The position numbers were made by a program, and so were the translations under genes. DNA of 64,000 nt from assembly GCF_009914755.1 (NCBI RefSeq), contig NC_060948.1; one strand, written 5' to 3'. Each line of letters starts with the position of its first letter. Within the stretch, counting starts at the first letter, position 1. The notes under the pieces are model-generated. The model had not been told where the DNA came from. It made no database searches and saw only the letters and a program-made list of their open reading frames with translations. Of this stretch, positions 1 through 43,800 are shown piece by piece. The DNA comes from the human T2T-CHM13v2.0 reference genome, Homo sapiens.

Positions 1-228
1 CTGAGACAGGGCCTCACTTGAGGCCAGGAATTCCAGAGGAGGCTGGCAAATAGAGTGAGATGCTGTCTCTAGAAAAAATAAATAAAATTTAAAAATTAGC
101 TGCTTGTTTTGCAGTGTGCCTACAGCCCTAGCTACTTGGGAGGCTGAGGTGAAAGAATTGTTTGAACCAGGGAGTTTGATGTTGCTGTAACTTATGATCT
201 TGTCACTTCACCCCAGCCTGTCCAGAGG
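1..228 (+). mobile_element. Old, diverged Alu (AluJ-like), 5' end outside the window
   Basis: Alu motifs 'cacttgaggccaggaattccagag', central A-rich linker, 'cctagctacttgggaggctgagg' and 'cactt caccccagcctg'. Confidence 0.8.
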
Positions 229-229
229 A

Positions 230-3200
230 TTATCTAATCATACTGTGGACTATTGCCAAATCTGCAGCAGTGAAACTCTGGACACATTCTGTGTCTGGTA
301 AAGTCACACTTTGGAACCAAGAAGAATTTCCAGCCTTACTTCCCTTGACAGAGCCTATCGCTAAGACAGTCACAACATAGATCCAGGATAGAATTCCAAC
401 AATAAATCCCTGAGCAAAAACTATAGCTGAAACTGCCATACCATGGATCCTCGATGAAATGCCACCAACAAATCCCTGGAAAAAATACAGCCTGAATATT
501 TAGCAGTAAATACCTGGCACTATCTGAATTTAACCCAGTCTCATTGTGGATCTTGGCTTATTTGTCAGTAGGAAACTACTCTACACAGTTCCATACTGAA
601 ACAATAACACTGTGAACCCACGTTGAGTCTCCAGCAATACTTTCCTGGAAACAGTTGGGAACTGATATAATCACATTAGGGACCCATGCTGAATCACTAG
701 TGATGAATTCATGGATATATTCTTCTATATGTGATACGGTCACAACACCTATCCAGGCTGAATCAGTTATTAAATCACTGGACATACTCTGAAACTGATA
801 TACTCACAACATGGATTCTGGCTGAAACTCTAGGATTAAGTCCCTGGGCACGTGATATGTTCCTACCATGGACCCAGGCTGAAAGTCCAGCAGTATCTTG
901 GATTCAACCATGGATTCTGGGTAGAATGCCAGCAATGAATCCCTGGAGAGAGGCTACAGCTGACATTGTCCTACCCTGGAACCAGGCTGAATTTATGTAG
1001 AAGGAAATGCCTGGACACCGTCTGAAACTTATACAATCACAAAGAGGATCCTGAGTGATTCTCCAGCACTAAATTCATGGACATGGGCAATAGCTGATGC
1101 AGACCAGCTGTGGACCAAACCTGAATTTCCAGCAGTAAATCCCTGGACAAAGTCTGTAGTTGATAGTACTATACCATGGATACAGGATGAGTCTCCAGCA
1201 ATAAATCCATGGACACAGTACGTATCTTATATGATCAAACCATGAGCCCAAAATGACTCTTCAGCAGTAAATCTCTGTACACTACCTGAATCTGATACCA
1301 TTATCCTGTGGACACAAGCTGAGTCTCCAACAGTAAATCCGTTCACAGAGGCTGGAACTTCCACAGTCACACCATGGGCCCAGGCTGTATCTCCAGCAGT
1401 AATTCCACGGACACAGCCTATACTTTCCACAGTCGTACCTTGGACCCAGGTTGAATGTCCATCAGTAAATACCTGGAGAACGTCCATAGCTGATGCCATC
1501 ACACTGTGGATAGGGGCTGAATTAACCGCAGGATATCAATGGATACTGCCTTGGGCTGCTACTGTCACACTGTGGTCACAGTCTGAATCTCCAGCAGGAA
1601 ATCTTTGGACACAGTCTGTGTATGACACAGACACACCATGGCCTCAGGCTGAATCTCCAGCAGTAGTTTGCTGGACAGAACATGTAGCTGATACACACCG
1701 TGGACTCAGTTTGAATTTTTAACAGTAAAGCCTTGGATCCAATCTGTATCTGATACGCTCATACCATGGACCCAGGCTGAGTCTTCAGCACTAAAGCATT
1801 TGACACAGGCAATAGCTTATACAATCAAGCTGTGGAACCAAGTCAAATCACCTGCCATAAATCTCTGGAAACAATATGAAACGAATATGTTCACATGGTG
1901 TACTGAGGTTGAATCTCCAAAAGTAAAGGAGGGGACACATCCTATACCTGCTACAGTTATACCACTGAACCAAGCTGAATCTGTAGGAGTAAATCCCTCC
2001 ACAAAGCTTGAAACAGAAATACTCATACTGTGGACCCAGGCTCATTCTAAAATCAACAATCTCTGTACATATACTCTACTTGATAGAGTGAAACCATTGG
2101 CTAAGGATGTTTGTGTAGCAGTAAACCCATGGAGACAGTCTAAAACTGAAATAGTCACATCATGGGCCCAGGATCTGTTGCCAGCAATAAATCCCTTAAC
2201 AGTGGCTGTACCTGGTATAGTCACACTGCAGTACATGGCTGTATCTCTAGTAATAATTCCCAGGAGAGAGGCTCTAGCTGATACAGTCATAATATGGACA
2301 CAGACAAAATCACCAGCAATCAGTTTCTGGTTGTAACCTCTGCCTGGCACAGTCAAACTATGGACCCAAGCAAAATATACACCCGTTATCACTTGGAACC
2401 AGGCTGAATTTCCAGCTAGAAATCCCATGATACAATCTTAGCCTCCAATTGTAAAGATCTGAACAGAGTCTGAATCTCTAGCCCCAAGTCCTCTGTTATA
2501 GGTGGAGACTGATACAGTCATACCATGGACCCAGACTGAATCTTTGGCAGTAAATCCCTGGACAAAGCCTGTTGCTGATACACTCACACTGTGTACACAG
2601 CCTGTAACTCCATCATTAATCGTTTTTTCACAAACTTTTCATGATACACTGAAAGCATGGGCTCAAACTGAATGCTTACCAGTAAATACCTGGACAGAGG
2701 CTGTAGCTTCCAAAATTATACCCTGGACCCAGGCTGAATTTCCAGCAGTAAATCCTTAGACAGAGCCTTTTGCTCATACGGTAACAATTTTGGCACAGGC
2801 TGTATCTTCAACAGTAAAGATCTGGCCACAGCCTTCATTTAATACAACCAACTTATGTATTTAATACAACCAATCTGAATCTGCAGCATTAATTACATGG
2901 ATACAGCCTGCATCTGATACATACATAGGATTGATCCAATCTGAATCTTCACCAGTGAATTCCTGGAGACTGCCTATATCTAATATATTATCATTGTGGA
3001 CCAAGCCTGTATCTCTAGCAGTCAATCTGTGAATAGAGGCAATAGCTTCCATAGTCATACCTTGGACCAAAGCTTTACTTTTAGAAACAAAACCCTGGAC
3101 ACATCCTGTATCTGATATACTTATGCTGTGGACCCAGGTTGAATCTTCTGCAGCGATTACCTCCACACAGGCAGTATCTGACACAATTATACTGTGGCTG

Positions 3201-3545
3201 CATGCTGCAGGCCTCCAGTAGGAATTACCTGGATACAGACTGATCTGATCTTCTTATATCTTCTTATATCATGAAACAATGATGAATCTCAACAGAAAAT
3301 TCAGGGGCATGGGCTGTAGTTTCCACCGTGTTACCATGCAACCAGTTATCCCTTCAGCAGGAAAAACCTGGACATCTACCTGTGTCAGAATCAATCACCC
3401 CGCAGACCCAGTCTGAGTCTCCAGTAATGAACACATGGACAGAGGCTGCAGCTTCCACACTCTCAAAGTGGACTCATGATGATTTTCCAGATGCAAATGC
3501 TTATACACAGAGCGAAATGGGCACATACTGGACAATGGGTAAAAC
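230..3545 (+). repeat. Degenerate 66-bp (2 x 33-bp) coding tandem repeat, consensus peptide about WTQAESPAVNPWTEAVADTVTP
   Basis: Recurrent 'ccatggacccaggctgaatctccagcagtaaatccctggaca'; caggctg at 1381 and caggttg at 1447 are 66 nt apart; ORF fragments 1800-2336 and 2502-2759 show W about every 11 residues. Confidence 0.92.
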
Positions 3546-3556
3546 TGAAGCTAAGA

Positions 3557-6150
<2,594 letters not shown>

Positions 6151-7214
6151 CCCTATAAAGCTGTTATAATTGATCATTTTCTCCTCCTGAAATTGAGCCG
6201 AACAGAGAAACACTATTAACGAGTCATTTTGGCTGCTTGTCCAAACGTGTACCCTTTTTGCCAGTAAAAACTGTTTATTCCCCAGATCGGTATTTTATAG
6301 CTTTGTCAACTGAGATAACTGCCACACAAAGCCAATATAAAATCAATTCTATCCAACCAAGCCAGTTTACAAGCATTTGGCTTCCTGGAAGAGTTGTTTA
6401 CCAGCTCTATGGCAGGAAATTAAAAATTATCAAGACAAAAGAAAGCCCTCATGTCCCAAGTACCTCTCTTATCTCTCTTTATGCTTTTTCTTTATTCATT
6501 CTTGTTCTCTTCCATCTGTATGTACACTGACCCCTTCTTGTTCAGTCTTTTCTTCTTGTACTTTCCTTTCATTCTGTATTTTCCCATCTTGCTCAGGTAT
6601 TTCTCCTCTGGTCTCCTCTCCTATTCTGCTATCCATAGGCTCTTTTGCTAATCCTCCTCAGAATATATTTCCCTCAGCATTTACTAAAGAGTCAATTCTT
6701 TCTCATTCTTTTTCATCCTTGCATACTGCTCCAGCCGCATTTTTAACAAAACAACCTCTCCTGATGCCTGGATCTCAGTCTGGACCCAAGCCTGAACAAC
6801 AACCTCTTAGGTATTCAGAACTCAGTGTTTCCCTGGGTGAGTGTCAACTAGCTGTGATTTGGAAAGAAAGTTTCCAGGCTTTCTGGCTCTTCAGGACAGC
6901 TGTTATTTCCCATGAAACCACAGGCAGCTTTAGTCGAGTCAGATATTTGAGTTAATGTACTTGGTATGAAGACTCCTGTTGAACCCTAAAACCAGAGTTT
7001 GTAGCAACAGAGGTTATGTTCTCAGACCGTTGCAAAACCAAAATTTAGGTTATTGTGTGAATCAGCAGAGATGTGTAAATATTGAGAGAATATTTTTTTT
7101 TTTTTTTTGCCAAACAGGATGTTTGAGCTATGTGTTATGAACACAATTCTATTCAGACAGCAGTATTTTAAAGATAGCCTTACTCCTTAGAAAGGTTTTA
7201 TTATTTTCACTTGA

Positions 7215-7400
7215 GGTATATACATATATACACACACTATTGGATAATAGTATAACATCTTGGATACTAGTATCAGATATAAATAATAATATACTACATA
7301 TATAAACTATATATACATATATTTATATATAGCATCTATATAGTATATATGTGTATATATATAGTATATATGTAATAGTGTGTGTGTATATATATATACG
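7215..7400. repeat. (TA)n/(TG)n low-complexity tract
   Basis: Imperfect TATATA/TGTGTA runs seen directly. Confidence 0.8.
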
Positions 7401-7603
7401 CTTTATTGTTAGAAGGGGAAGTATGAAGATAACCTCTGTACTATATCTAAAATTGTGGGATGAATAATGTATATTTCTATGTATTTTCTCAGAATTGAAG
7501 ATAATGAATTTCCAAGCATTTTTCTAAAAGTCTAAATTTAGATGTTAGAAAAGGAAGGGTAGTAACACTAATCACTCTATACCATGTGTGGGTTCCTCTG
7601 CAG

Positions 7604-7924
7604 AGTGTGGATTATGCCCTGGCATTATCCCTGTCTGTCCCAACTGCTGGGAGGCAGAAATTGGTGAATTCTGTTGGGTGATTTCTGCACAAATGTTTTT
7701 CTCCCATTTTTGTGCTGGCTCCATACTACATGAACAGTGGATCATTAGCACAGCTAGATGTGTCAATTTTATGTAAGTCTGAGCAATTCATTTCAAGATT
7801 ATGATATCATTATAAAGCAAGTAAAACATTGAGACTGTTACTGAATATGTTTCTTTTCTATTTATTTATTTATTTTTGTTTGTGTGTGTGAGACAGAGAT
7901 AGGGAAAGAGAGAGAGATAGAGAC

Positions 7925-7969
<45 letters not shown>

Positions 7970-9301
7970 GAGAGAGAGAGACTCTCCCTCTATTGTCCAG
8001 GCTAAAATGCAGTGGTGTGACTCACATTAGCCTCAAACTCCCAATATTAAGGGATGCTCCCACCTCAGCCATCTGAGTACCTGGGACCGCAGGCACACGC
8101 TACTGCATCTGGATAATTTTGTTGTTGTTGTTCTTGCTGTTGGTAAGGAAAAATTCTCATCATGTTGACCAATTGGTCTCAAATGATCCTTGAAAATAGT
8201 TTCTAAAGTACTATTTGCAACTGAGTGCTTACCTGGACTTCATGTGATTCACGTGAACTCCAGGGTTTTTTCACACTGAAATGTGGAAATAATAAGATTT
8301 TTTCCTTGATTTTTTTTTCCCCCAAAAAAATGCAGAAGCCCTGGCTGTGGTCCGAGTGGGGCTTATTGACCTCCAGGATCCTGCCCAAGCTGAGATTGTA
8401 ACCTTTGAGCATGCCATGCCCTATTTAGGTCCCAAGGGACCTCTAGGACCTGGGTTGATCTTCCTGAAGCAACCACTACATTTTCAACCCAGGTTCCTTC
8501 CTATACGCCTGGAGCAATGTCTGGAACAAGAGAAAATATACAACTATATGACTGTTGGCTATGTAGTTGGTCCCTTATGAGGGGGTGACTAAAGAAGAAG
8601 ACACTGGAATGAAAGAGAAGCATGTTTAGGAAGAGAATAGTATCCTCTCATGAATAATAAAAGATTTGTCTTTCCCTTCACCATACTTCTCCCTCTAATG
8701 TGGGCTAAAATTTGAAGACAAACACAAACACCTCTTCTCTGTTTTCTATCAGAAAGTCCTGGAATTGTGCAAAAACGGCACCTGAGCATCCTACAAGTCA
8801 GCACTTGTGCCCAATTTTGGCTCAAGCTGAATGAACTCACTTTCTGGGTGGAGGCCAAGAAAGCCATGTGGATGGCTGACTATCAGGTGACAAATTCATG
8901 GGGTATAAATATCAGGGAGAAAGAGGAATATCTTGAAAACCAAAAGTTACTTCTGGCCCTCCTTTAAAATATTGTTTGATATCTTGCCTCTTGTTTCTTG
9001 CAAGGTGACTTGGGAGCACCTTTCGTATGCCATCTACAGCAAGAGGACACTTGGGTGCAAGTGGGAATCTTGAGTCACTTTGAGGACCATTGCACAAAGC
9101 CCTAGGTCTTCAGCCAAGTGCACCCTTTCCTTTTCTGACTCCAGGGAGTGACACAGTCTAGCTATGCTCCCTGGTACAAGCAAGGGCCCATGACTACCTC
9201 TGCTTCTATGTCCCATTCAGTCTCTACCTCTACAAATGCTTCAGCTTTTACCTCCACCCCTGCTTCTCTTTGGCCACACTTCTCTCTGCCACAGCCTCAG
9301 A
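7604..9301 (+). pseudogene. PRSSLY: Exons 2-5: first trypsin-like domain (catalytically degenerate) and Ser/Thr-rich linker
   Basis: ECGLCPG...WEAEIGEFCWVISAQMFFSHFCAGSILHEQWIISTARC (7604-7772, cag/gtaagt); VVRVGLIDLQD...LIFLKQPLHFQPRFLPIRL; QKRHLSILQVSTCAQFW; GDLGAPFVCHLQQEDTWVQVGILS with in-frame TAG and TGA. Confidence 0.85.
7855..8190 (-). mobile_element. Old Alu (AluJ-like) with a (GA)n microsatellite near its tail
   Basis: 'ctctattgtccaggctaaaatgcagtggtgtga...cccacctcagcc'; (GA)n at ~7905-7980. Confidence 0.75.
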
Positions 9302-11959
9302 GTAAGGCTCAAAAACTTGGTAGAGGTAATAAAGGAAGAAGAGAATGGAATTAGAAAAGAAGAGAGGGAAGCAGAGAGGAAAGAAAGCTCTTCCTGTAAA
9401 ATATATGAGTTTTTTATCTACCAAATCACAGAAATTATTTTTATCGTGGTTTACAAAGGTATTTCACACTTGATCTATGATTCAATTTCCATTGTATCCC
9501 TGTATGATATAGATTACTGTATAATATAGGTCATGAAACATGATTACTATAGTTATGTTAATTGCTTACTCTTATACTAGATAAGTAGAATGGATTGTTC
9601 AAGTTCTTATGGCAAAAGATGAATAGGACTAACATTAAGACACACTCTCCTAACACAAAGTCATTTCTACCACACAGTATCTTACATGTGTAATAGAATT
9701 ATTTTGAATTGAATATATTTTAAGTTAAAGACATTATGATGTTTGGAAACAGCATAGCAGTTGGTAAGTAATGTGTTTTAGGTGCTGGTGTACTAGACTG
9801 TATTACATTGTGATTATCAGTTTCCTCCTTCCCTTGGCTATCAGAAAACCTATCACAATATTAGCAATGGCTATTTCACATTACTGTACTTCCACTTATT
9901 TCCTTAGAAACTGAGGGATCTCTTTTGGTGTCATGTACTAAATGTGCACTTAACCACAGCTATATTATAGCTAACACCTATTGTCATAGCTACAGTGAAT
10001 AACACATTAAAACACAAAGGAGGCCACAATTATTTGCTCACATTCTGCAAAGTCTGATTCAAAGACAACTACACTTAAGATCATAGTTATGCTTCTAATT
10101 TCATCTATATTTCCTCACCTCTTCTAGAGAGAGCCTATCTTCATCGTTTTTATATCTGTAATATGTGCATTAACTGGCATTGCTTCAACTCAGTTTTCTG
10201 AGAAACTCTCAAATGTTTTTTAAAATATGAGCTATTTCCTTAACCCCAAACTTGAATGTTCTATTTAAACTGTCATTCTGATATCACACTAAGATTGTAA
10301 GTTCAGGAAGATAAGCTCCCTCCAATTTAGAGACAGGAGCCTTATCTCCAAATTTTTCCTTGTTTATCTAATATCTCCAAATCAAATAATTTTTTGTTGC
10401 CCATCTACTTTGATAACTTTTAAGTAGCTAAAATCATAGCTATGTAAAGGTTGCAATGGGGAGAAAGCTGGAATGACTCCCAGTACTTTGACTGAAGAAA
10501 TTTAAGTTAGGACATAAAGAAACTGTGAACTTAGAAAAATAGTAAAAGGAAAACTTTTTTTTTTTTTCAGAAAAATGTAAAAACAAAAACAAAGGAAAAA
10601 CAGAAAAGAGGTAGAAGTTTGTGTTTGCTAGTCATATTTAACAATGCTGACCTGGTTAGCAGAAATAGGAGGGATCTAAATTTTTTTTTAAATGGTCTAC
10701 ATGTGGCAATTCTATTCAAATTAATTGTGTGAATTTTCCCCTTGGCTTTGGCAGATCAGATTTATCTGCGATATGCCATGCCTTGGAAGGCTGTCATCAT
10801 CATCTGTGGGAGTCAGATCTGCAGTGGTTCCATAGTTGGCAGCTCTTGGATTCTCACAGCTGCCCACTGTGTCAGGAACATGTAAGTTTGTGCCTGCCTC
10901 TTCCCATGTCCTATAATTCATTATCCCATAATTACATTGCTGGAAGTTTATCTGTCCAAATTCACTTCTATAATGCATGACCATCTCACTTATACAATAA
11001 CTTTTTTGTTTTAGGCTAAAAAGAAATTGCCTCACTGTGTTTGGCTTATTAGTACCTCTGTTAGTTATCTCCTCTGCAACCCCATTGTCTGTGGACTCTT
11101 TATTCATAGATTTCTGATTTCAATGAAGATGAGCTAGGAACCTTGTGTATCATGACAAAAGCGATATTCCGGAAAGCCTGATGTAGGTTTAAGGTTCAGG
11201 TTTTCTAATGATTGTACTGTAATAAATCTTTGCCTATGCACTCAGGGATCCTGAAGACACTGCTGTGATACTGGGCCTGAGGCACCCTGAGGCACCACTG
11301 AGAGTTGTGAAGGTGTCTACCATTCTACTGCATGACAGATTCTGGTTGGTGACTGAGGCAGCAAGAAATATTCTGGAATTGCTACTCCTCCACGATGTCC
11401 AGACTCCCATTTGGCTCTTATCACTCTTGGGCTATCTGAGGAACCTGAATAGTTCAGAATGCTGGCTCTCTAGGCCACATATTGTTACACCAGGTCAGTG
11501 GTTATTTTTCTTATTAGCGTAGTTGTTCTAAAAAAATGAGGTTCATATTTTTAATATTATGATTCAAGGCATAAGTGTAATCACATTTGTATACATTATT
11601 AATTATAAGATATTTAATCCACATCAGAGACCCACTAGGAGATTTGTTTTTGTTTTATAAGATGATGGTTCTGATGATGACTTCACAGGATTTTAGATCT
11701 AACAAAAATTATATGAGGAACTTTCTCTGTACAGTCCAGATTTGTAAAGCAAGGTAGAGATGACTTCCTTCCCAACTCTTTTCTCACTTCGGTACAAAGG
11801 AAAAAGAAGGGTTTTGTATTGTTTTGTTTCATTTTTACTTCTTTATGAAAATGTAGCTTAACTTGACTTGGAATTTTGAATTTCAAAGGTAAAAATTGAC
11901 TTGTTAATTTTGCAGAGTAGAATTTAAAATGTTATTAAAAAGTGACAAGTCTGTCTTCA

Positions 11960-12250
11960 TTGACTCACCCCGGTAATTCCAGCAATGTGGGAGCTTAAAC
12001 TAAGAGGACACTTTGAGTCCAGGAATTTGATACCAGCTTCAGCAATATAGCAGGACTTCATCACTAAACACGTAAACAAAAACAAAGCCTGGTTGATGTT
12101 GCACACAGGTAGTCCCAGCTATGTGGGAGGCTGAGGCAGGACGATGGCTTGAGCCCAGAGGTCGAGGCTGCAGTAAGTGAAGATTGTGCCAATGCACTCC
12201 AGCCTGGGTGACCAAAGAAGAACTTGTCTCAAACAAACAAACAAACAAAA
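11960..12250 (+). mobile_element. Old Alu (AluJ-like) with (AAAC)n tail
   Basis: 'cttgagcccagaggtcgaggctgcagtaagtgaagattgtgccaatgcactccagcctgggtgac'. Confidence 0.85.
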
Positions 12251-12253
12251 AAA

Positions 12254-12647
<394 letters not shown>

Positions 12648-14313
12648 TTAAAGTAATGACGAGACAGAAGTGATGAGACAAATCGTAGTCTTATCTTAAT
12701 ACTTAGGGTTTAAATTTAACATATATTCTTAAGGATATAGTCCATTTGTCTTTCTAGGAGGGACCAATGACAATCCAGAAATGTTAGGCGCAAGTGATGA
12801 AAGCTTCCAGCTGTGCCCACCTGTACCCTGACATAGGCAGTTCCATTGTTTGCTTCATTACTCAGGACAAAAACTCTGATGAAATTGTGGTACATCATCA
12901 ATTTTTTTCTTACTACATGATAGAAACTATAACTTTGTTCCTATACAAAGGGGTGTATACTGCATATGCCTAAATGATAAATATAAGTGAATTATTGATC
13001 AGTAGGAAACCATTTTAAAATTCTTTAATTACAGAACAAAGTCTCTAAAAAAAATCTGTTTTTAATCTCTGAGTTTTCTTACATACGATTTCAATCTCTA
13101 GCCATACTGTATAGCTATTATGCTGCTGTACACACAAATCAGACATTCTATATTATTCTCTTATTCTAATAATAGTATCTTTACACCTCAGAGTTTAAAA
13201 CGAGTCTCACCTTTTTCTATTTCCCCAATTAAAATAACTTTTTAACATTTAATCTTCAGTGATTTTTTGTAGTAATATTTTTGAAGGTATTTGATCAGGA
13301 TGATTTATTATGCACTTATCTGATGTCTCCTTTTCTTCTGAATACATGTTTTAATATCTACTTATTAAATCTATGATTAATAATTTGGAATAGGGATTTA
13401 AATCCAAATTCTATGTTGGAATTTACAGGAGTCAGTGAGCCTACGAAAAGCATTTATGTGCAGACCAGTATCTGACAATGGCAGTTGGAGACAAATAGGC
13501 TTCACCAGTCTCAAAGCCCTAGCTACTACAGTGAGTCCACATTTTTCCTGGATATTATCTACTTCAGCAAAAGAAGGTCACTCAATAAACCAGGCCCTTG
13601 TGCCTTGGGTAGAAACTCCGAACTCCTCTAGTCTCCTTAAACAACCAACCACACTGCCACTTTCCTCAATAATAATTACGGCAGCCCAGGGACTTTGGTA
13701 GCCTAGTGACTATAACTACTGATGCCACAGTCTGGTCACAGTATGATAAAACGCCAGAGCATCAACAAGGAAAATTTTGACTTAGCCTTCCAAAATCTAT
13801 CTAAATATACCTTCAATAAATATGGCTTTTCTTCGTAATAACTGCTTTCTACTACTTCCTGAACTAATGCATGGCCTTGGATTGTTTTCATTCTTGAAAA
13901 TGATTCAAAAGTTCATATTTAACATGAACGTGAATGCAGGATTTTATTTATCAGCAAAAAAAATTTTCAAAATGATGCGAAATACAAATGTGGAATTGTA
14001 TTTGTGAATATTAGTCTTTCAAATTATATTTTTATCCCAACTAACTCACACAATGTTTTGTAACTATCTGCATATTCTCCTCAGGTGGGGGAAAAACAGT
14101 ATCAGAGTTCTTGAAGAATTTATGAAAAAGAAAATGACAATACTATACAAGGTTTAACCTATTCACAATACTGTATTTAGTGAATGAAAACATTACTTTT
14201 AAAATCCTACTTAAGTATTGAGTAAATAAATAAAGCATATTATTTCAATAACTCTAAAATACGTGTTCACGAAGACAATACAACAAGGGTTAAAATACAT
14301 AAACAAACAAATG

Positions 14314-14630
14314 AGGCTGGGCATCATGGCTTGCACCTGTAAGCCCAGCATTTTAAGAGGCCAAGGCGGGCAGATCGCTTGAGGTCAGGAGTTTGAGACC
14401 AGCATGGCAAATATGGTGAAACCTCATGTCAACTAAAAATACAAAAATCAGCTGGACATGGTGGCATGCGCCTGTAATCACACCTCCTTGGGAAGGCTGA
14501 GGCAGCGGAATCGCTTGAAGCTGGGAGGCTAAAGTTGAGGTGAGCTGAGATCATGACACTTCCCTCCTGCCTGGGTTACAGAGCCAGACTCTGTCTCAAC
14601 ACACACACACACACATACACACACACACAA
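14314..14630 (+). mobile_element. AluS with (CA)n tail
   Basis: 'ggctgggcatcatggcttgcacctgtaagcccagc...gaggtcaggagtttgagaccagc'; CA repeat at 14598-14629. Confidence 0.9.
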
Positions 14631-15029
14631 ATCTAAAAAAATGGAAAAAAAAATCTGTACTAGAAAAAGAGCTCACAGGCAAACTCACATATCTAACAGG
14701 AAAAAAATGTCCTTTAAACAAAGGTGGCACAAGAGGCAAATTTAAAAAAAACAAATGTATCAGCTTGCATATAAAGTACAAATAATATACTGAAGAGAAC
14801 CACAAGGGGAAAAAAATCAAAATTTATAAGTATGTACTCTAAAAGAAGCTGAAAGTCACTTAAAAATTTTCTGGATTCTATGTCTCTATATTGCAAAAAT
14901 GATCATAAAATTTGCAGGAGCAGAACAATCAAAATCTATCTTAAAACTCAGTAAGCACTTCAAGTCTCACATAAGAATTGTAACAGAAAATGGATGTGTC
15001 TGCAGTATTTCCACACAAATCTGAACAAA

Positions 15030-17390
15030 CACTATTTCTTCATACTCTTTGTTTCACTATTCTAAGAAAATAACCTCCATATTAATATTAGGTGATGCGA
15101 CAAAGCAGGTCTTCATCATGATAAGCAACACTGGGTGTCCACACCAGTACCCAAGTGGGTCTTAATTCCCGGCCAGTTTCCCTCCCTGGGCACATACCAG
15201 AGGAGTCAGCCATTTTGCAGTCTCTTCACATTTCCTCCTCTGAGCCCAATGTGGTCCTCCAGATTCTCTGTGTAGTGGCCTCTTTTGTCTGGGTAGCAGG
15301 GAAGTGTGAGTGAAGACGGCAGAAAGGAGAAATCACGTCAGGGGAGCCTGGGTTCATCGTAACCGAAAATGATGGGCCTGGGAGAGCCATTCTGGGAGGA
15401 CGCAGACCTAGACAGGCCTTGGGGGGACATCTGCATGGAGGGTGAGAGGGCCCTGGTTGAGCCCAAACTGAGCCCCAAGTGTTAGTCAGCCTCAGGGTGG
15501 GGAAGGGAGCCAACTAGAGATGTTGAGCAAGTTATCCCTTAAGACTTGCTTCTCACCCACTGACCTTAGACACTTATGCCTCTCAGGTGACTTAAGGTGC
15601 CCTAATCCTGAAATGTGAGTGTTACAGTTCCCTGAAGTCCGTTTCTCCTTCAGCCCATGGATGGCCTGGGATTGCTCACTGCAGTCTCTTCCCTGAAGCT
15701 TGGGTTCTCCTAACCTGACCTCCTCTCTGTTCCCTCTCTAATGGCCTCCCTCCCTCGGGAAGTACTGAAGGGGATTGAGCCACAGGCCCTGGCTGATGAT
15801 CTGGGGGACTGAAGAAGGGGGTACAGGACAGGTCAGGTCATGGCTCAAAGCCAGTTCCCCAGAGGCCAAGGAATGACCAGCAAGGTTTTTCCCATGATGC
15901 CCCACCGTGGCACCCATCTCAGCAATCCTGCCGGGACCTGGGTAGCCAGGGGCAACCAACCAGCTGAAGAAGGTCAGATGTAGGTGTACTGCCTGCAGCT
16001 GGAGGCTTGACCTTCATGATCCCACAACCACTGGACTGCAGTGGAATGAGACACCCTGTTTCTTGGAGGGATAGGAATCAGGAAGGTTCATGCCAGACAT
16101 ACCCTCCCACACACAACCTCCCCTACCTTGCTGGGAGGCACTCCTTACCAAGGATGCCAACGCAGTACTCCTGAATGATCACTTCATTGTGGAAGTAAAG
16201 GCTGTTACAAAAGGAAACCTTCATCCTGATGCCAGTACCTGGGGTGGCTGAGTTCCTCCATCTACCTGGTCAAGAAGGAGAAACAGGATGGACTCAAAGG
16301 ACCATTTCATGTAGCTGGACTGAAGTGGCCTGCTAGCTGGAGTGAAGCATGTGTTTCCCCTTCTCAGCTGTCCTGCTTAGACACCCCTGGGCCCCAGGGG
16401 GACCGCAACCTCACCCAGGCACTGGACCACTCCCACAGATTCAGGCTCAGCAGCCTAACCTGCAAATCCATCATGTAGCTCAGCAGGACTTCATCATTTG
16501 TGACCCTGGTCCATATCTGGGCCCAAGTCTTGAGCACCATGTGTTTCTGGGGTAAGCCTGCTGGACACAGGCACAGGGAATAGGGGTAGTTCCATGGCTG
16601 GCATGGGCATAGAGACTCCCCTTCCTCCAGGGACTTTCCCAGGGAAATGTGCCCTTCGACTTTCTGCAGTGCATAAAGGGTCCTTTGCGCTCCTATTCTC
16701 TCTTGTGAGTGCTGTGCTTTGCTTCCTGTCCCTACTCTACGTGCTCTCAGGGCAACTGCAAGCAAGCTGCCCTCCTATCTGCAGAAGTCTGGCCTCTGCT
16801 CCCTTCATTGTTCCTCATCCCCTGACTCCTGGATGACCTCCAGTGCCTACCAGCTGGCTCCCCGCAACCCTGCTCCTGGGACCTAGGCGCCCACCCCCTG
16901 CTGCCAGCCATCCCGAATTAGCAGCTGCGAAGACATGGCTCTGGCCCGGAAACCGGGGATGCCCTGTGGCTTGAGGCATTTACAAAGCCCAGCTGCAAAT
17001 GATGGACCTCCAGCGAGTCCGTTGCGGGCCGGGGCATACTGGGGCCAGGGCCCGGCTCTGCCCAGTGGTCCTCCTGCTGCTGCTCCACGTCGGCCTCTTC
17101 CTTGGCCACCACTTCCACTTCTGTCGTGATGTCATTTACCAGGAGCACGCCTCTTCCCCCCAGGCCGCCCTCTCCCGCAGAGCCTCCAGACTTAACACGG
17201 TGCCCTCCTAGGGCTCCCACAGACCAAGGTCTGAGCCGCCCACCCCACGCCCCTGGCACCCCTAGACTCTGGGGGCCGCTCCTCGAGAGGCCCGGGGGCC
17301 TCGCCTAGCTGAGAATCACGGTCTCACACCTACGTGGACCCAGGATTCCTGGGGAGTCCCGCAGGGCCCACAGTCCGCCGCAGTCACCAT
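15030..17390 (-). pseudogene. TSPY: TSPY-family unprocessed pseudogene (copy A)
   Basis: Minus-strand peptides LLVNDITTEVEVVAKEEADVEQQQED...PGPGPSMPRPATDSLEV..LQLGFVNA (exon 1, ending ~16937) and NDEVLLSYMMDLQ (exon 2, ~16460-16520); exon 3 ~16149-16261, exon 4 ~15890-16055, exon 5 ~15720-15800. Exon-1 donor reads AT; internal deletions and frameshifts. Confidence 0.88.
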
Positions 17391-18170
17391 GAGGTCCAGA
17401 TTCCCTGCATGGTTAGCTGCATACAGGAGCCATAGGCAGAGGCCCTGGACTTCCAGAGCCCCGCTAGCAGGCACCGCGGCCGGTGGGTGCTGCACTCACA
17501 GCAGCCTCTGCGCCACCAAGGCAGTGAACACAGGTCATTGGATGGGCGACCACGGCAGCTTGTCTCTGGTGTGCCCAGGGCATAGGACAAGAGATCCTTT
17601 GGAATACCCCTGGGAGTGCAACATCCTAGGGAGGATGCATGGAACTTGGAGTCTGTATTTCCCTAGATCTGAAAGAGTCCTTGCGGGGTTTTGAATTCCG
17701 GTGCTGACGAATTCCACCCCAGGAAGGTGCCAGATGACTTTCCTCCCAGATGCCCCCTCGGCCCCACTCCCCGAAAACCACCGCCGCTGCCCTTGCCCCA
17801 GCAGGCAGGACTAGACCCTCTCTCTTGCCTCTGGATCTCCAATATTCAGTACCATCAGCCTAGCCTGCCTAATGAAGTGAGATGTTTCATGTGTTCCCTG
17901 TGAGTCAATGGCTTGCGGCACTCAGGATGCCAGTTAGGGTATAGGTCTTCCATGTCACAATTCCAAAGGGCTCACAGTCTGCGTGTGCCTGAACCCACCA
18001 CCACCTTGCACAAGCATCTTCTCAGAGGAGGACTACCGCGGGAGGATGGAGCTGCAGGCCACCCAGGGGAGGGGCTCCTCAGGAGACGCCTACCGCTCTT
18101 GCAATAATTGGCAGATGCCCACTGCCTTCCCAATGATTGGCTGGAGGTAGGCGTGATTTCCGGGCATGGC
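17390..18170. promoter_or_regulatory. GC-rich divergent promoter region between the TSPY pseudogene and the RBMY copy, with an inverted CCAAT pair
   Basis: Raised GC/CpG content at ~16900-18270; 'ccaatgattgg' at 18130-18140 just upstream of the RBMY-like first exon. Confidence 0.55.
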
Positions 18171-40949: not shown

Positions 40950-43800
40950 GTAAGGAGGAAGGGCACTTTTTATAATAAAATCCTGTATCTGCATCTGTAT
41001 TATTAAGGCATTTAAAAAACTTTATGTCTATTTTTTAATGTCATAGGAAATGTCTCAGGGGCCGGGGAAACATGAGTGAGGATGGCAGAGGGGAGAAAGC
41101 ATGTCAGGGGAGACTGGGGTCATTGAACCAAAACATGACACGACTGGGATAGCCATTCTAGAAGGACACAGACCTAGACACGCCTCAAGTGCACCTCTCT
41201 GTGGCAGGTAAGAGGGCCCTAGTGGAGGCCAAACTGAGCCCCAGGTGGTAGCAGGCCTCAAGGCGTGGAAGGGAGCCAGAGAAGGATGATGCGGCAGCTA
41301 TCCATTGAGATTGCTTCTCACCCATTGACCTTTGCCACTTCTGTGTCTTAGGTGACTTTGGGTGCCCCAGTTCTGAAATATGAGTGTTACAGTTCCCTGA
41401 TGGGCTTTTCTCCCTCAGCCCAGGGATGGCCTGGGATTTCTCAGTGCAGGCTCCTCCCCGAGCCTTGAGTTCTCCATGTGTGTCCCAGCTCCAGGACCCA
41501 CAGGCCTCTGAGCCCCCAGCCCTGGGTTGCTTACCTGGTTTCCTCTCTGTTTCCTCTCTGAGGGCCTAACTCCTTCCGGTAGTGCTGCAGGGGGATTGAG
41601 ACAGAGGCCCTGAATGATGATCTGGGGGACTGAGAAAAGGGATCCGTGACTGGTCAGGTCATGGTTCAAAGCCAGTTCCCCAGATGCCAAGGAAAGACCA
41701 GCAAGGTCCTTTCCCATGACACCCCTCAGCGGTGCCCACCTCAGCAATCCTGGCTGACCTTTAGTGGTCACGGTCAGCCAACCAGCGGAAGAAGCTCAGT
41801 TAGGCTGTGTCCTGCCTGAAGCTGGGGTCTTCTGCTGCATGACTCTAGAAACACTGGACTACAGTAGAGACAGATGCCATGTATCCTGGAGCAAGAAGAT
41901 TTGGGTAGGCTCATGCCAGGCCTAGCCTCCCACACTCCACCCGCTCTATCATTCCGGGAGGCACTCCTTACCGAGGATGCCAACACGATATTCCTTAAAG
42001 ATCACTTCATTGTGGAAATAAAGACTGTGACAAAAGGAACACTTCATCCTGCCACCAGTACCCTGGATGGCTGAGTTCCTCCACCTGCTACACCAAGAAG
42101 AAGAGGACAGACTCAAAGGATCCATTTCATCTAGTTGGGCTGAGGGCCTGCTGGCTAGGGTGAAGCATGCGTTTTCCCTTCCCAGCTCTCCCACTGAGAC
42201 ACCCCCAGACCCCAAGAGGACCTCAACCTGACCAGGACCCTCGATCCCTCCCCCAGACCCAGGCACCCTAGCCTGATTTGCAAATCCATCCTGTAGCTTA
42301 CTTAGCAGGACTTCCTCATGGTTTCTGAAACCTGCCGACATCTGGGTGTGCGGCACAATCTGCCTCTGGTCAAGGAGCCTCCAGATGACTGGGTGGGTGT
42401 GCCAGGAAACACCCTGCAACTTTGCAAGAGCTGGGAGACTGTTGGGCAGGGCTATCCCCCAGACCTTTGGCCTGGCACTTTGCATTGGTGATCCTGTCTC
42501 TGTCCAGCATGAGGGGCACGGTAACGGATATGGTGGTCTTGTGGGCAAGTGGAGGGAGGCCCAGAAAGACTCTGCCAACAAGGAGTGGGGAGCACAAGTT
42601 GGCAGGGTTTGGGTGTGGGGTGCTGTGGTGTGAGGCAGTTGTTTCCTCAGAGTTCCTGAGCTGCACATGGCCCTTGTGCACTGGGTGCTAGATAGGCTCT
42701 GCTGAGGGTGTCAAGGTGTGTGGTACCCTCTTCTGTTCTCCCTGAGGGGTGGGTGTGTCCACTTGAGGGAACCGGTGTGGGTAGAAAGGACTGCAGGGCT
42801 GTACCTGGTGCTCCCCGTGGGGCTCATGTGTGTGCAACGGAGGCATGTGTGCAAAGGAGGATATATATGCTCAGGGCCCGCAGCTCTTTGGGTGCAACAC
42901 AGGCAGAGGGAAGAAAGACTGTCTGGGTACCTGGTGCCTGCCTTGCAGAGGACAGCAGCCCCGTGCACCATGAACCCGAGTCTTGAGTACCTTGTGTTTC
43001 TGGTGTGAGGCCTCTGGACACACACACATGGGGAGTGGGTGTGGTTCGATGGCTGGTATGAGCATGCAGACTCCCTTTCCTCCAAGGACTTTCCCAGGGA
43101 AACGTGCCCTTCAACTTTCTGCTGTGAGTGAAGGGTCCTTGACACCCCTATTTTCTCTTGTGAGTGCTGAGCTTGGCTCCCAGTCCCTATCACATGCTCT
43201 CAGGTCACCCTCAAGCAAGCTGCCCTACTATCTGCAGTATCCTTGCCTCAGCTCCCCTCGCTGTCTCCCATCCCCTGCCTCCTGGCTGACCCTGTGTGCC
43301 CCTGGCCTGGCTCCGTTGCTCCCCGCCCCCGGAAGCCCGACTCCCACCTCCTGCTGCCAGTCATCCCGAATGGGCAGTTACAAAGATATGGCTCTGGCCT
43401 AGAAGCCGGAGATGCCCTGGATGATGGCCCCTGTGCCCTCCAGGCCAGGCAGACACTTCTGACAAAGCTTCTGCCTCAGCCATGGGCAGGGCATGTGGCC
43501 TGGGGCATTCACGGAGCCCAGCTCCCTGTGAAGGACCTCCAGCGACTCTGTGGCCGGCTGGGGCATGCTGGGGCCAGGGCCAGGCTGTGTTCACTGGTCC
43601 TCCACCTGCCGCTCCATGTCGGCTTTCTCCTCAACCACCACCTAGACCACCGCCGTGACGTCGTCCACCACCAGCACCTTCTCCTCCTACAGGGGCACCT
43701 CCACACTCCGTGCCCTGGCTGCCCTCTCCTGCAGAGCCTCCAATTTCAACAGGGTGCCTCCTTTGGAGGTCCCATTGCCTACAGCCTGCACTGTCACCTT
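40950..43800 (-). pseudogene. TSPY: TSPY-family unprocessed pseudogene (copy B), 5' end missing
   Basis: Minus strand EEKVLVVDDVTAVV*VVVEEKADMERQVED...PGPGPSMPQPATESLEVLHRELGSVNA...GAIIQGISGF*ARA (exon 1 ending 43390); IVPHTQMSAGFRNHEEVLLS (exon 2); SLYFHNEVIFKEYRVGILG (exon 3); colinear with copy A through exons 4-6. Confidence 0.9.

What the first reader, a model, noticed from the sequence alone, without database searches (positions are those of the whole stretch)
230..3545. Trp-anchored 11/22-residue repeat: an uncharacterised repeat domain
Seen: about 50 degenerate 66-bp units, each made of two 33-bp halves (WTQAESPAVNP / WTEAVADTVTP). Trp spacing is kept even where other positions drift, and the later block (3885-6150) keeps only the 11-aa period. 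Inference: an 11-mer was doubled to a 22-mer and then amplified. The regular W/P spacing suggests either an ordered solenoid or Trp-ladder stalk, or a Ser/Thr-rich glycosylated spacer. I do not recognise a named domain family.
Basis: partly seen in the sequence, partly recalled or inferred. Interest (0 to 1): 0.7.

Follow-up and report, generated by a model that had tools for sequence, protein, structure and literature searches.

The report
Dead PRSSLY gene copy on Y
The repeat is the broken giant exon of PRSSLY, a testis gene that is dead in humans; its tryptophan-spaced 11/22-residue unit survives in working copies of other placental mammals, where it likely forms a long floppy stalk, and the human Y holds 14 such relics that likely spread as passengers beside TSPY.

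Summary
The 33/66-bp repeat is real. It is the giant coding exon of an unannotated PRSSLY pseudogene copy. Window 237-13689 aligns collinearly with slow-loris PRSSLY (residues 909-3365, 56% identity), with at least 13 stops, 14 frameshifts, an Alu and a solo LTR. Eight downstream exons encode two trypsin-like domains. Ten eutherian orthologs keep Trp at multiples of 11; 13 non-eutherian ones do not. Neither AlphaFold model gave a confident solenoid; a disordered, acidic Ser/Thr/Pro-rich stalk is most likely. Human PRSSLY pseudogenes (Hughes 2022) and the dog repeat array (Li 2013) are in print. Not found in the papers I could search: the human Y holds 14 larger relics, four of them 100% identical over this repeat. 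One early stop is shared by all 10 copies that keep the site, and copies diverged equally at all codon positions, so the gene was probably dead before it multiplied. PRSSLY's last two exons also sit about 5 kb upstream of the gene in at least 38 units of a 20.3-kb array that I infer is the TSPY array. Verdict: a new member of a known pseudogene family, with a modest evolutionary story.

The parts
1..220 (+). Remnant of a 5' intron of PRSSLY with an old Alu-like piece; a 5' exon of the N-terminal trypsin-like domain lies just outside the window (about -364..-230)
   Evidence: 84% to the 10.24-Mb copy over window -796..220; exon 62% to P0047 residues 50-94, with a stop in it
220..238 (.). Deletion junction: about 9.5 kb of intron and about the first 900 codons of the giant exon are missing
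   Evidence: match to the 10.24-Mb copy jumps from its position 1556 to 11029; alignment to loris starts at residue 909
232..3545 (+). 22-residue (66-bp) Trp repeat block of the giant exon; at least 8 stops and 4 frameshifts
   Evidence: loris residues 909-1939, 47-48% identity
613..615 (+). TGA at a Trp codon (loris W1022), shared by all 10 human copies that keep the site
3557..3872 (+). Alu inserted into the exon, with a target-site duplication; empty site in the 6.17- and 5.98-Mb copies
   Evidence: masked 3551-3881 in the hub's table
3885..6150 (+). 11-residue Trp repeat block of the same exon
   Evidence: loris residues 1945 to about 2560
5237..5700 (+). Solo LTR (TG...CA, imperfect 5-bp flanking duplication) inserted in the exon; family LTR7/HERV-H by recall only
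   Evidence: empty site in 5 of 5 other copies that align here; ends
6150..6922 (+). Non-repeat 3' end of the giant exon (Ser/Pro/Cys-rich linker)
   Evidence: loris residues about 2560-2817
7602..9303 (+). Four exons (7602-7773, 8326-8583, 8752-8886, 9004-9303) of trypsin-like domain 2; 2 stops, 1 frameshift
   Evidence: 76% to loris; published rabbit and bull/pig PRSSLY primers match at 7602 and 9127 with 2 mismatches each; the dog primer did not match
10748..13701 (+). Four exons (10748-10882, 11247-11492, 12757-12889, 13429-13701) of trypsin-like domain 3 and the hydrophobic tail; 1 frameshift
   Evidence: 70% to loris; intron positions; tail translation
12545..18000 (+). PRSSLY 3' tail plus downstream spacer, also found in units of a 20.3-kb array at chrY 8.96-9.8 Mb (inferred TSPY array)

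Best explanation
The repeat is the decayed giant exon of a PRSSLY pseudogene copy with at least 13 stops and 14 frameshifts, and in working PRSSLY of other placental mammals it likely forms a long, disordered, acidic Ser/Thr/Pro-rich stalk that would hold catalytically dead trypsin-like domains on the surface of post-meiotic germ cells. SHOWN: identity of the gene, exon layout, lesions, 11/22 period in 10 eutherian orthologs, loss of the catalytic His and Ser in domain 2, 14 larger relics on chrY, one stop shared by 10 of 10 copies, equal divergence at all codon positions and introns. INFERRED: a 33-bp unit arose and expanded by unequal crossing-over in the eutherian stem; part of it doubled to 66 bp; weak selection kept Trp; the protein is secreted and anchored by its hydrophobic C-terminus (GPI by analogy); the stalk is O-glycosylated; Trp acts as a periodic weak sticker. 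On the human lineage the gene was hit by an early stop, then copied in a burst as the upstream flank of TSPY, and again inside AZFc segmental duplications. This copy now makes no protein.
For: Collinear match to loris P0032 residues 909-3365, 56% over 2286 codons, 70-76% in protease exons; the same exon order with bat P0001. Relatives of P0001 include a protein named PRSSLY, and published PRSSLY primers hit the window (2 of 3). Trp gaps at multiples of 11: 47-85% in 10 eutherian proteins (shuffle mean 7%, max 27%), 0-20% in 13 marsupial, monotreme, lizard and amphibian proteins. With the tested column left out of the search, Trp1 is the best-kept position in loris (0.71) and mole (0.73); all non-Trp positions are at most 0.64. 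Repeat region in loris and mole: 25-26% Ser+Thr, 10% Asp+Glu, under 4% Lys+Arg, under 0.5% Cys. AlphaFold on fruit-bat P0003: repeat pLDDT about 22 with no secondary structure, two folded trypsin domains, a C-terminal helix. Catalytic motifs TARC and GDLGAP against TAAHC and GDSGGP of kallikrein. Window versus 6 other copies: protease exons differ 0.142/0.121/0.137 at codon positions 1/2/3, 22-mer block 0.134/0.133/0.125, introns 0.136. Of 87 Trp-type sites, one is a stop in 5 of 5 lineages; the background rate is about 6% per copy. Hughes 2022 report Ka/Ks near 1 in the upstream ORF.
Against: Disorder is inferred from weak models on 16-sequence alignments. The second model (loris, 361 aa, mean pLDDT 45, pTM 0.27) had three helices of about 22-residue pitch at pLDDT 75-83 and a short two-strand patch, so local order is not excluded. 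In mole, Trp12 (0.52) is no better kept than several other positions. Nei-Gojobori dN/dS among copies was 0.69-0.84, not 1; I attribute this to transition bias and protein-guided alignment but did not simulate it. Only one stop is clearly ancestral, and gene conversion could spread a stop among copies. Signal peptide and GPI anchor were judged from hydropathy only; the eutherian models I held are cut at the N-terminus. Mouse knockouts are fertile, and a second study found no sex-ratio effect, so any function of the stalk is slight or redundant.
Confidence: 0.8

Rival explanations
1. In intact PRSSLY the 11/22-mer folds into an ordered rod, either a beta-solenoid with a Trp ladder or Pro-punctuated 22-residue amphipathic helices like those of exchangeable apolipoproteins (likeness recalled), perhaps on binding lipid.
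For: Strict 11-residue Trp register over 1000 or more residues in several orders; Trp1 best kept; three 18-19-residue helices at about 22-residue pitch with pLDDT 75-83 in one model.
Against: No hydrophobic harmonic stands out at the 11/3-helix or beta frequency (25-100% of column permutations reach the observed amplitude). There are 0.8-0.9 Pro per 11-mer. The 11-mer block has pLDDT about 22, and 263 of 361 residues are under 50 in the second model. No solved or Pfam relative. The one ESM Atlas search gave at most 0.76, within chance.
Confidence: 0.15
2. PRSSLY was amplified as a working multicopy testis gene family in early simians and the copies died later; the shared stop spread by gene conversion.
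For: Star-like radiation of copies; dN/dS 0.69-0.84; a majority of copies keeps the protease exons free of stops and 83% identical to loris.
Against: Stop at window 613 in 10 of 10 copies whose flanks differ by 11-18%; exon divergence equals intron divergence; loris versus four non-rodent orthologs is 84.5-87.3%, slightly above the 83% of the human majority.
Confidence: 0.2
3. The array is a non-coding minisatellite or transposon relic, and the peptide pattern is incidental.
For: No long open frame (longest 214 aa in the block); third codon positions are no more variable between units than first or second.
Against: In-frame continuity into conserved protease exons; open 1000-3900-aa frames with the same unit in 10 eutherians; hits only on chrY. 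Third-position conservation follows base type: A/T columns 0.75-0.80, G/C 0.60-0.63.
Confidence: 0.01

Closest known systems
PRSSLY (protease, serine-like, Y; dog DYNG) and its human pseudogene (Hughes et al. 2022, PMC9178871; I read abstract, background, results, discussion, methods, the first part of supplements 1, 2, 3, 5 and 9, and searched all nine)
   Same: Giant coding exon followed by small exons for trypsin-like domains; Y-only; pseudogene in human, low testis transcription reported (0.17 TPM).
   Different: The paper's human model is the copy at chrY 10.24 Mb, about 85% identical to this one. The paper calls PRSSLY single-copy in good assemblies, speaks only of 'loci' for human, finds 'no identifiable domains' upstream, and its main text has no hit for tandem, tryptophan, TSPY, AZFc or catalytic. 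Figures were not visible.
Dog DYNG repeat domain (Li et al. 2013, PMC3759724; passages only, supplement not available)
   Same: [quoted passage not shown]
   Different: The passage gives no unit, period or Trp pattern; Supplemental Fig. 5, unseen, may show them.
PRSS55 and other testis trypsin-like surface proteins
   Same: Closest paralog per Hughes 2022; trypsin fold and hydrophobic tail.
   Different: PRSSLY has two or three tandem trypsin-like domains, lacks the catalytic His/Ser in domain 2, and has a 1000-3000-residue repeat insert. The GPI anchor of PRSS55 is recalled; I saw only a search listing.
Mucin-type PTS stalks encoded by giant exons (MUC16-like; recalled)
   Same: One huge exon, Ser/Thr/Pro-rich tandem repeats, fast turnover, no cysteines.
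   Different: Only about 25% Ser+Thr, and 6% Trp in fixed register, which mucin repeats lack.
TSPY composite repeat (Rhie et al., bioRxiv 10.1101/2022.12.01.518724; passages only)
   Same: About 20.2-kb units, 931-kb array, solitary TSPY2 in proximal IR3, matching the 20.3-kb array found here.
   Different: The main text has no 'PRSS'; units are said to hold five unnamed new repeat annotations, which may include these exons (not checked).

Membership tests
PRSSLY | Orthology of the C-terminal trypsin-like domains to named PRSSLY proteins | tested here: met
   70-76% to loris over 545 codons; query P0001 is 74% to a protein named PRSSLY; 2 of 3 published primers match. No PRSS family tree was built.
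PRSSLY | Giant upstream coding exon plus small protease exons | tested here: met
   6.7-kb exon with inserts plus 8 exons; the same intron positions in 5 other copies
PRSSLY | Y-linked, absent from X | tested here: met
   all hits on contig C24; one weak intronic hit on C5; the searches score only the best candidates
PRSSLY | Intact reading frame (functional gene) | tested here: not met
   13 stops, 14 frameshifts, 2 insertions, 5' deletion: a member as a pseudogene only
PRSSLY | Testis-specific transcription | not testable with these tools
   no RNA data; the paper's 0.17 TPM is for its own model
Active S1 serine protease | His57 and Ser195 in the same domain | tested here: not met
   Domain 2: His replaced in 13 of 13 orthologs screened, Ser replaced in the 12 where the motif was found. 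Domain 3 keeps TAAHC in 6 of 6 eutherians, but the GDSGGP site reads PGSAV in the 4 matched; that position is assigned by motif only.
Solenoid or apolipoprotein-type 11/22-mer repeat | Regular confident fold or amphipathic periodicity | tested here: inconclusive
   low-confidence, mutually inconsistent models; no dominant harmonic
Mucin-type PTS domain | Dense O-glycosylation | not testable with these tools
   composition only
Non-coding satellite or transposon (Dfam) | Match to a Dfam consensus | not testable with these tools
   no Dfam library; the block is unmasked in the hub's table

The most novel reading that the evidence does not exclude
PRSSLY sat directly upstream of TSPY on the ancestral primate Y, was killed by one early stop, and was then carried by every TSPY duplication. 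The human Y now holds about 60 relics: 14 large ones (one just upstream of the inferred TSPY2, four in AZFc) and a two-exon tail in each of about 46 TSPY-array-type units. These give a neutral, datable record of how the TSPY, RBMY2 and AZFc amplicons arose. The Trp 11-mer stalk is a eutherian invention that came with Y-restriction of the gene.
Probability: 0.6. Interest if true: 0.55.

Novelty: new member of a known kind. Interest (0 to 1): 0.4.

Why it matters
The locus has no RefSeq row, so it is an annotation gap repeated four times in the infertility-linked AZFc region and many times elsewhere on Y. A gene described as single-copy has 14 large human relics and apparently forms part of the TSPY repeat unit. 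That ties the TSPY array to its ancestral neighbour and gives neutral markers for dating Y amplifications. For the living protein in livestock, dogs and rodents, the defined 11/22-mer and the missing catalytic residues recast PRSSLY as a probable pseudo-protease on a long stalk, which can be tested. The copy in this window itself almost certainly does nothing.

Tried and rejected
Tandem Repeats Finder missed the array. Pfam on 10 window ORFs gave nothing above cut-off, nor on 5 ortholog fragments. One ESM Atlas search on sheep residues 1-400 gave scores of at most 0.76, within chance. phmmer against 1.84 billion representatives gave 14 hits: 8 are short ORFs 91-100% identical to human Y copies, 4 match other PRSSLY regions, 1 (P0048) is a probable ortholog fragment at 31%, and 1 (P0044) is an unrelated 5227-aa surface protein matching through a short stretch. 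So the repeat was not found outside PRSSLY. The unit-to-unit codon-position test did not show the usual third-position excess at lag 66 (0.52/0.53/0.55); base composition explains it, so I do not use it as evidence of coding. Nei-Gojobori ratios were set aside for direct codon-position counts. The MAFFT alignment misplaces the 10.24- and 8.55-Mb copies where they carry deletions; those rows were masked or left out there. A second majority stop near window 5118 is ambiguous (likely CpG decay), and five majority frameshifts are not shared by all copies. The second AlphaFold model was not sent to a fold search because of its low confidence. The partial copies at 5.92, 7.94 and 8.45 Mb and the array units are known from coordinates and identity only; their sequences were not read. 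Holmlund 2022 was not held.

Full report
Observation. The periodicity is real. Over 230-3545, base identity is 0.498 at lag 66 and 0.411 at lag 33, against at most 0.288 at any lag in 100 shuffles; in 3885-5235 and 5700-6150 lag 33 leads. Forty-two gapless 66-bp units cover 2768 of 3316 bases (none in 5 shuffles); the consensus is WTQAESPAVNP-WTQPVADTVTL and its halves share 20 of 33 bases. TRF misses it and Pfam has no family for it.

Identity. A homolog search with the 214-aa ORF at 1692-2333 returned one protein, a 1513-aa bat protein with trypsin domains. It matches the window collinearly out to 13689. Its protease part retrieved proteins named PRSSLY or Y-linked serine-like protease-like and long orthologs from mole, sheep, rodents and slow loris. 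A frameshift-aware alignment of loris P0032 to the window covers residues 909-3365 at 56% identity (47-48% in the 22-mer block, 53-57% in the rest of the giant exon, 70-76% in the protease exons), with 13 stops and 14 frameshifts; stops inside unaligned insertions are not counted. Two of three published PRSSLY primers match with 2 mismatches. An Alu (3557-3872) and a solo LTR (5237-5700; family name recalled) interrupt the exon, and other copies show the empty sites. The repeat begins abruptly at about 232 because about 9.5 kb was deleted; a 5' exon survives just outside the window.

The repeat in living orthologs. Trp-to-Trp gaps are multiples of 11 in 47-85% of cases in 10 of 10 eutherian proteins (shuffle mean 7%) and in 0-20% in 13 non-eutherian ones, so the unit looks eutherian. 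In the early block Asn10 alternates between halves (51 of 75 pairs mixed, none double); the late block lacks this. With the tested column left out of the search, Trp1 is the best-kept position in loris and mole; Trp12 is so only in loris. The region is 25% Ser+Thr, acidic and nearly free of Cys. Among 1.84 billion representatives, 13 of 14 hits were human Y ORFs or probable PRSSLY fragments and one was unrelated.

Structure and mechanism. AlphaFold on fruit-bat P0003 folded two trypsin domains and a C-terminal helix and left the 11-mer block at pLDDT about 22. A 361-aa loris 22-mer segment gave mean pLDDT 45 and pTM 0.27, with one helical patch at 75-83 and one short strand patch. Hydrophobic periodicity favours neither an 11/3 helix nor a beta strand, and there are 0.8-0.9 Pro per 11-mer. 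Domain 2 lacks the catalytic His and Ser in the orthologs screened; domain 3 keeps His but apparently not Ser. Wallaby, platypus and anole proteins have a hydrophobic N-terminus and three trypsin stretches; the nine C-termini examined have a hydrophobic stretch. I infer a secreted, membrane-anchored pseudo-protease on a disordered, probably O-glycosylated stalk, with Trp as a periodic weak contact. An ordered fold remains possible (about 15%).

Copies on the human Y. The 22-mer block occurs at 11 loci, four of them 100% identical over 230-3545 (22.79, 23.46, 25.30, 26.92 Mb). By number and spacing (3.45 Mb from second to fourth) these are probably the AZFc blue amplicons; that label is recalled. 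Protease-region probes find 14 loci, plus a fragment at 8.45 Mb. All six other copies aligned are broken. The human model of Hughes 2022 is the 10.24-Mb copy. A TGA at window 613 is present in all 10 copies that keep the site; of 87 Trp-type sites it is the only one stopped in all five lineages compared, against a background near 6%. Window-versus-copy divergence is flat across codon positions and equal to introns (protease exons 0.142/0.121/0.137; introns 0.136). The tree is star-like, with the 8.55-Mb copy as sister of this one. Against this reading, Nei-Gojobori ratios were 0.69-0.84 and gene conversion cannot be excluded.

Link to TSPY. The loris gene model runs on from PRSSLY into a NAP domain, and that part matches DNA just downstream of five human copies. 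The gene after the 10.24-Mb copy is 98-99% identical to units of a 20.3-kb array, which fits TSPY2 and the TSPY array as described by Rhie et al.; I saw no annotation for those places. PRSSLY's last two exons match those units at 79-83%, about 5 kb upstream of the gene and on the same strand. Each search scored 40 of 60 candidates; together they list 38 distinct units. Sixty minus 14 leaves 46, close to the published array size. Probes from 10700-12000 find no array hits, so units carry only the tail. In this window RBMY2CP follows the spacer instead of TSPY.

Literature. Hughes 2022 (PMC9178871; main text except references, parts of five supplements; figures unseen, sequences cut at about 400 bases) reports human, chimpanzee and rhesus pseudogenes, no identifiable upstream domain, Ka/Ks near 1 upstream, single copy in good assemblies and a mild female-biased sex ratio in mutants. 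Li 2013 (PMC3759724; passages) notes the dog repeat array; its supplement could not be read and may define the unit. PMC7617377 (passages) found no phenotype for Prssly deletion. Searches: PRSSLY, 23 papers, 21 listed, none on T2T primate Y by title; PRSSLY + pseudogene + human Y, 2; PRSSLY + TSPY, 6, of which one was read in passages without the link; a five-term search gave 0; no 'PRSS' in the main text of three Y-amplicon papers. Subscription papers and bioRxiv supplements were not searchable, so 'not in print' holds only for these searches.

Verdict. Real, explained, and a member of a known family as a pseudogene. The unit definition, the pseudo-protease reading, the copy census, the shared stop and the PRSSLY tail in the array units were not found in the papers searched. 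Interest 0.4.

Noticed in passing
window 14018-18000: The spacer between the PRSSLY tail and RBMY2CP matches at 79-83% several loci at 22.28-23.24 Mb, some in 23.5-kb-spaced pairs (RBMY-type units by spacing, inferred), and at about 71-83% the 20.3-kb array units: RBMY and TSPY units may share upstream DNA.
   Followed up: partly
window 15654-15830 (-) and 41737-42050 (-): TSPY/NAP-like fragments with no row in the annotation (E 5e-4 and 2e-10 against the loris NAP part). The GC-rich 16900-17500 stretch on the minus strand looks like a TSPY first exon by recall.
   Followed up: partly
P0032 residues about 3370-3873: The slow-loris NCBI model fuses PRSSLY with a downstream NAP/TSPY-like gene, probably a prediction artefact that records the adjacency.
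   Followed up: partly
G000:C24 about 22.3215-22.3277 Mb and 6.174-6.176 Mb: Copy-specific insertions of about 6.2 kb and 2.0 kb inside the giant exon of two other copies; not identified.
   Followed up: no
G000:C24:8540094-8570000: The 8.55-Mb copy shares about 90% identity with the window's flanks for at least 7 kb upstream and 14 kb downstream, so the AZFc segment and this Yp locus come from one later duplication.
   Followed up: partly
P0039-P0043, P0049, P0051, P0052: Short 'proteins' in the public representative library are ORFs 91-100% identical to human Y PRSSLY relics, probably human DNA in metagenome sets.
   Followed up: partly
P0004 residues 1-244: Sheep has its own recent 22-mer expansion (lag-22 identity 0.46, lag-11 0.09), so the array is still turning over by lineage.
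   Followed up: no
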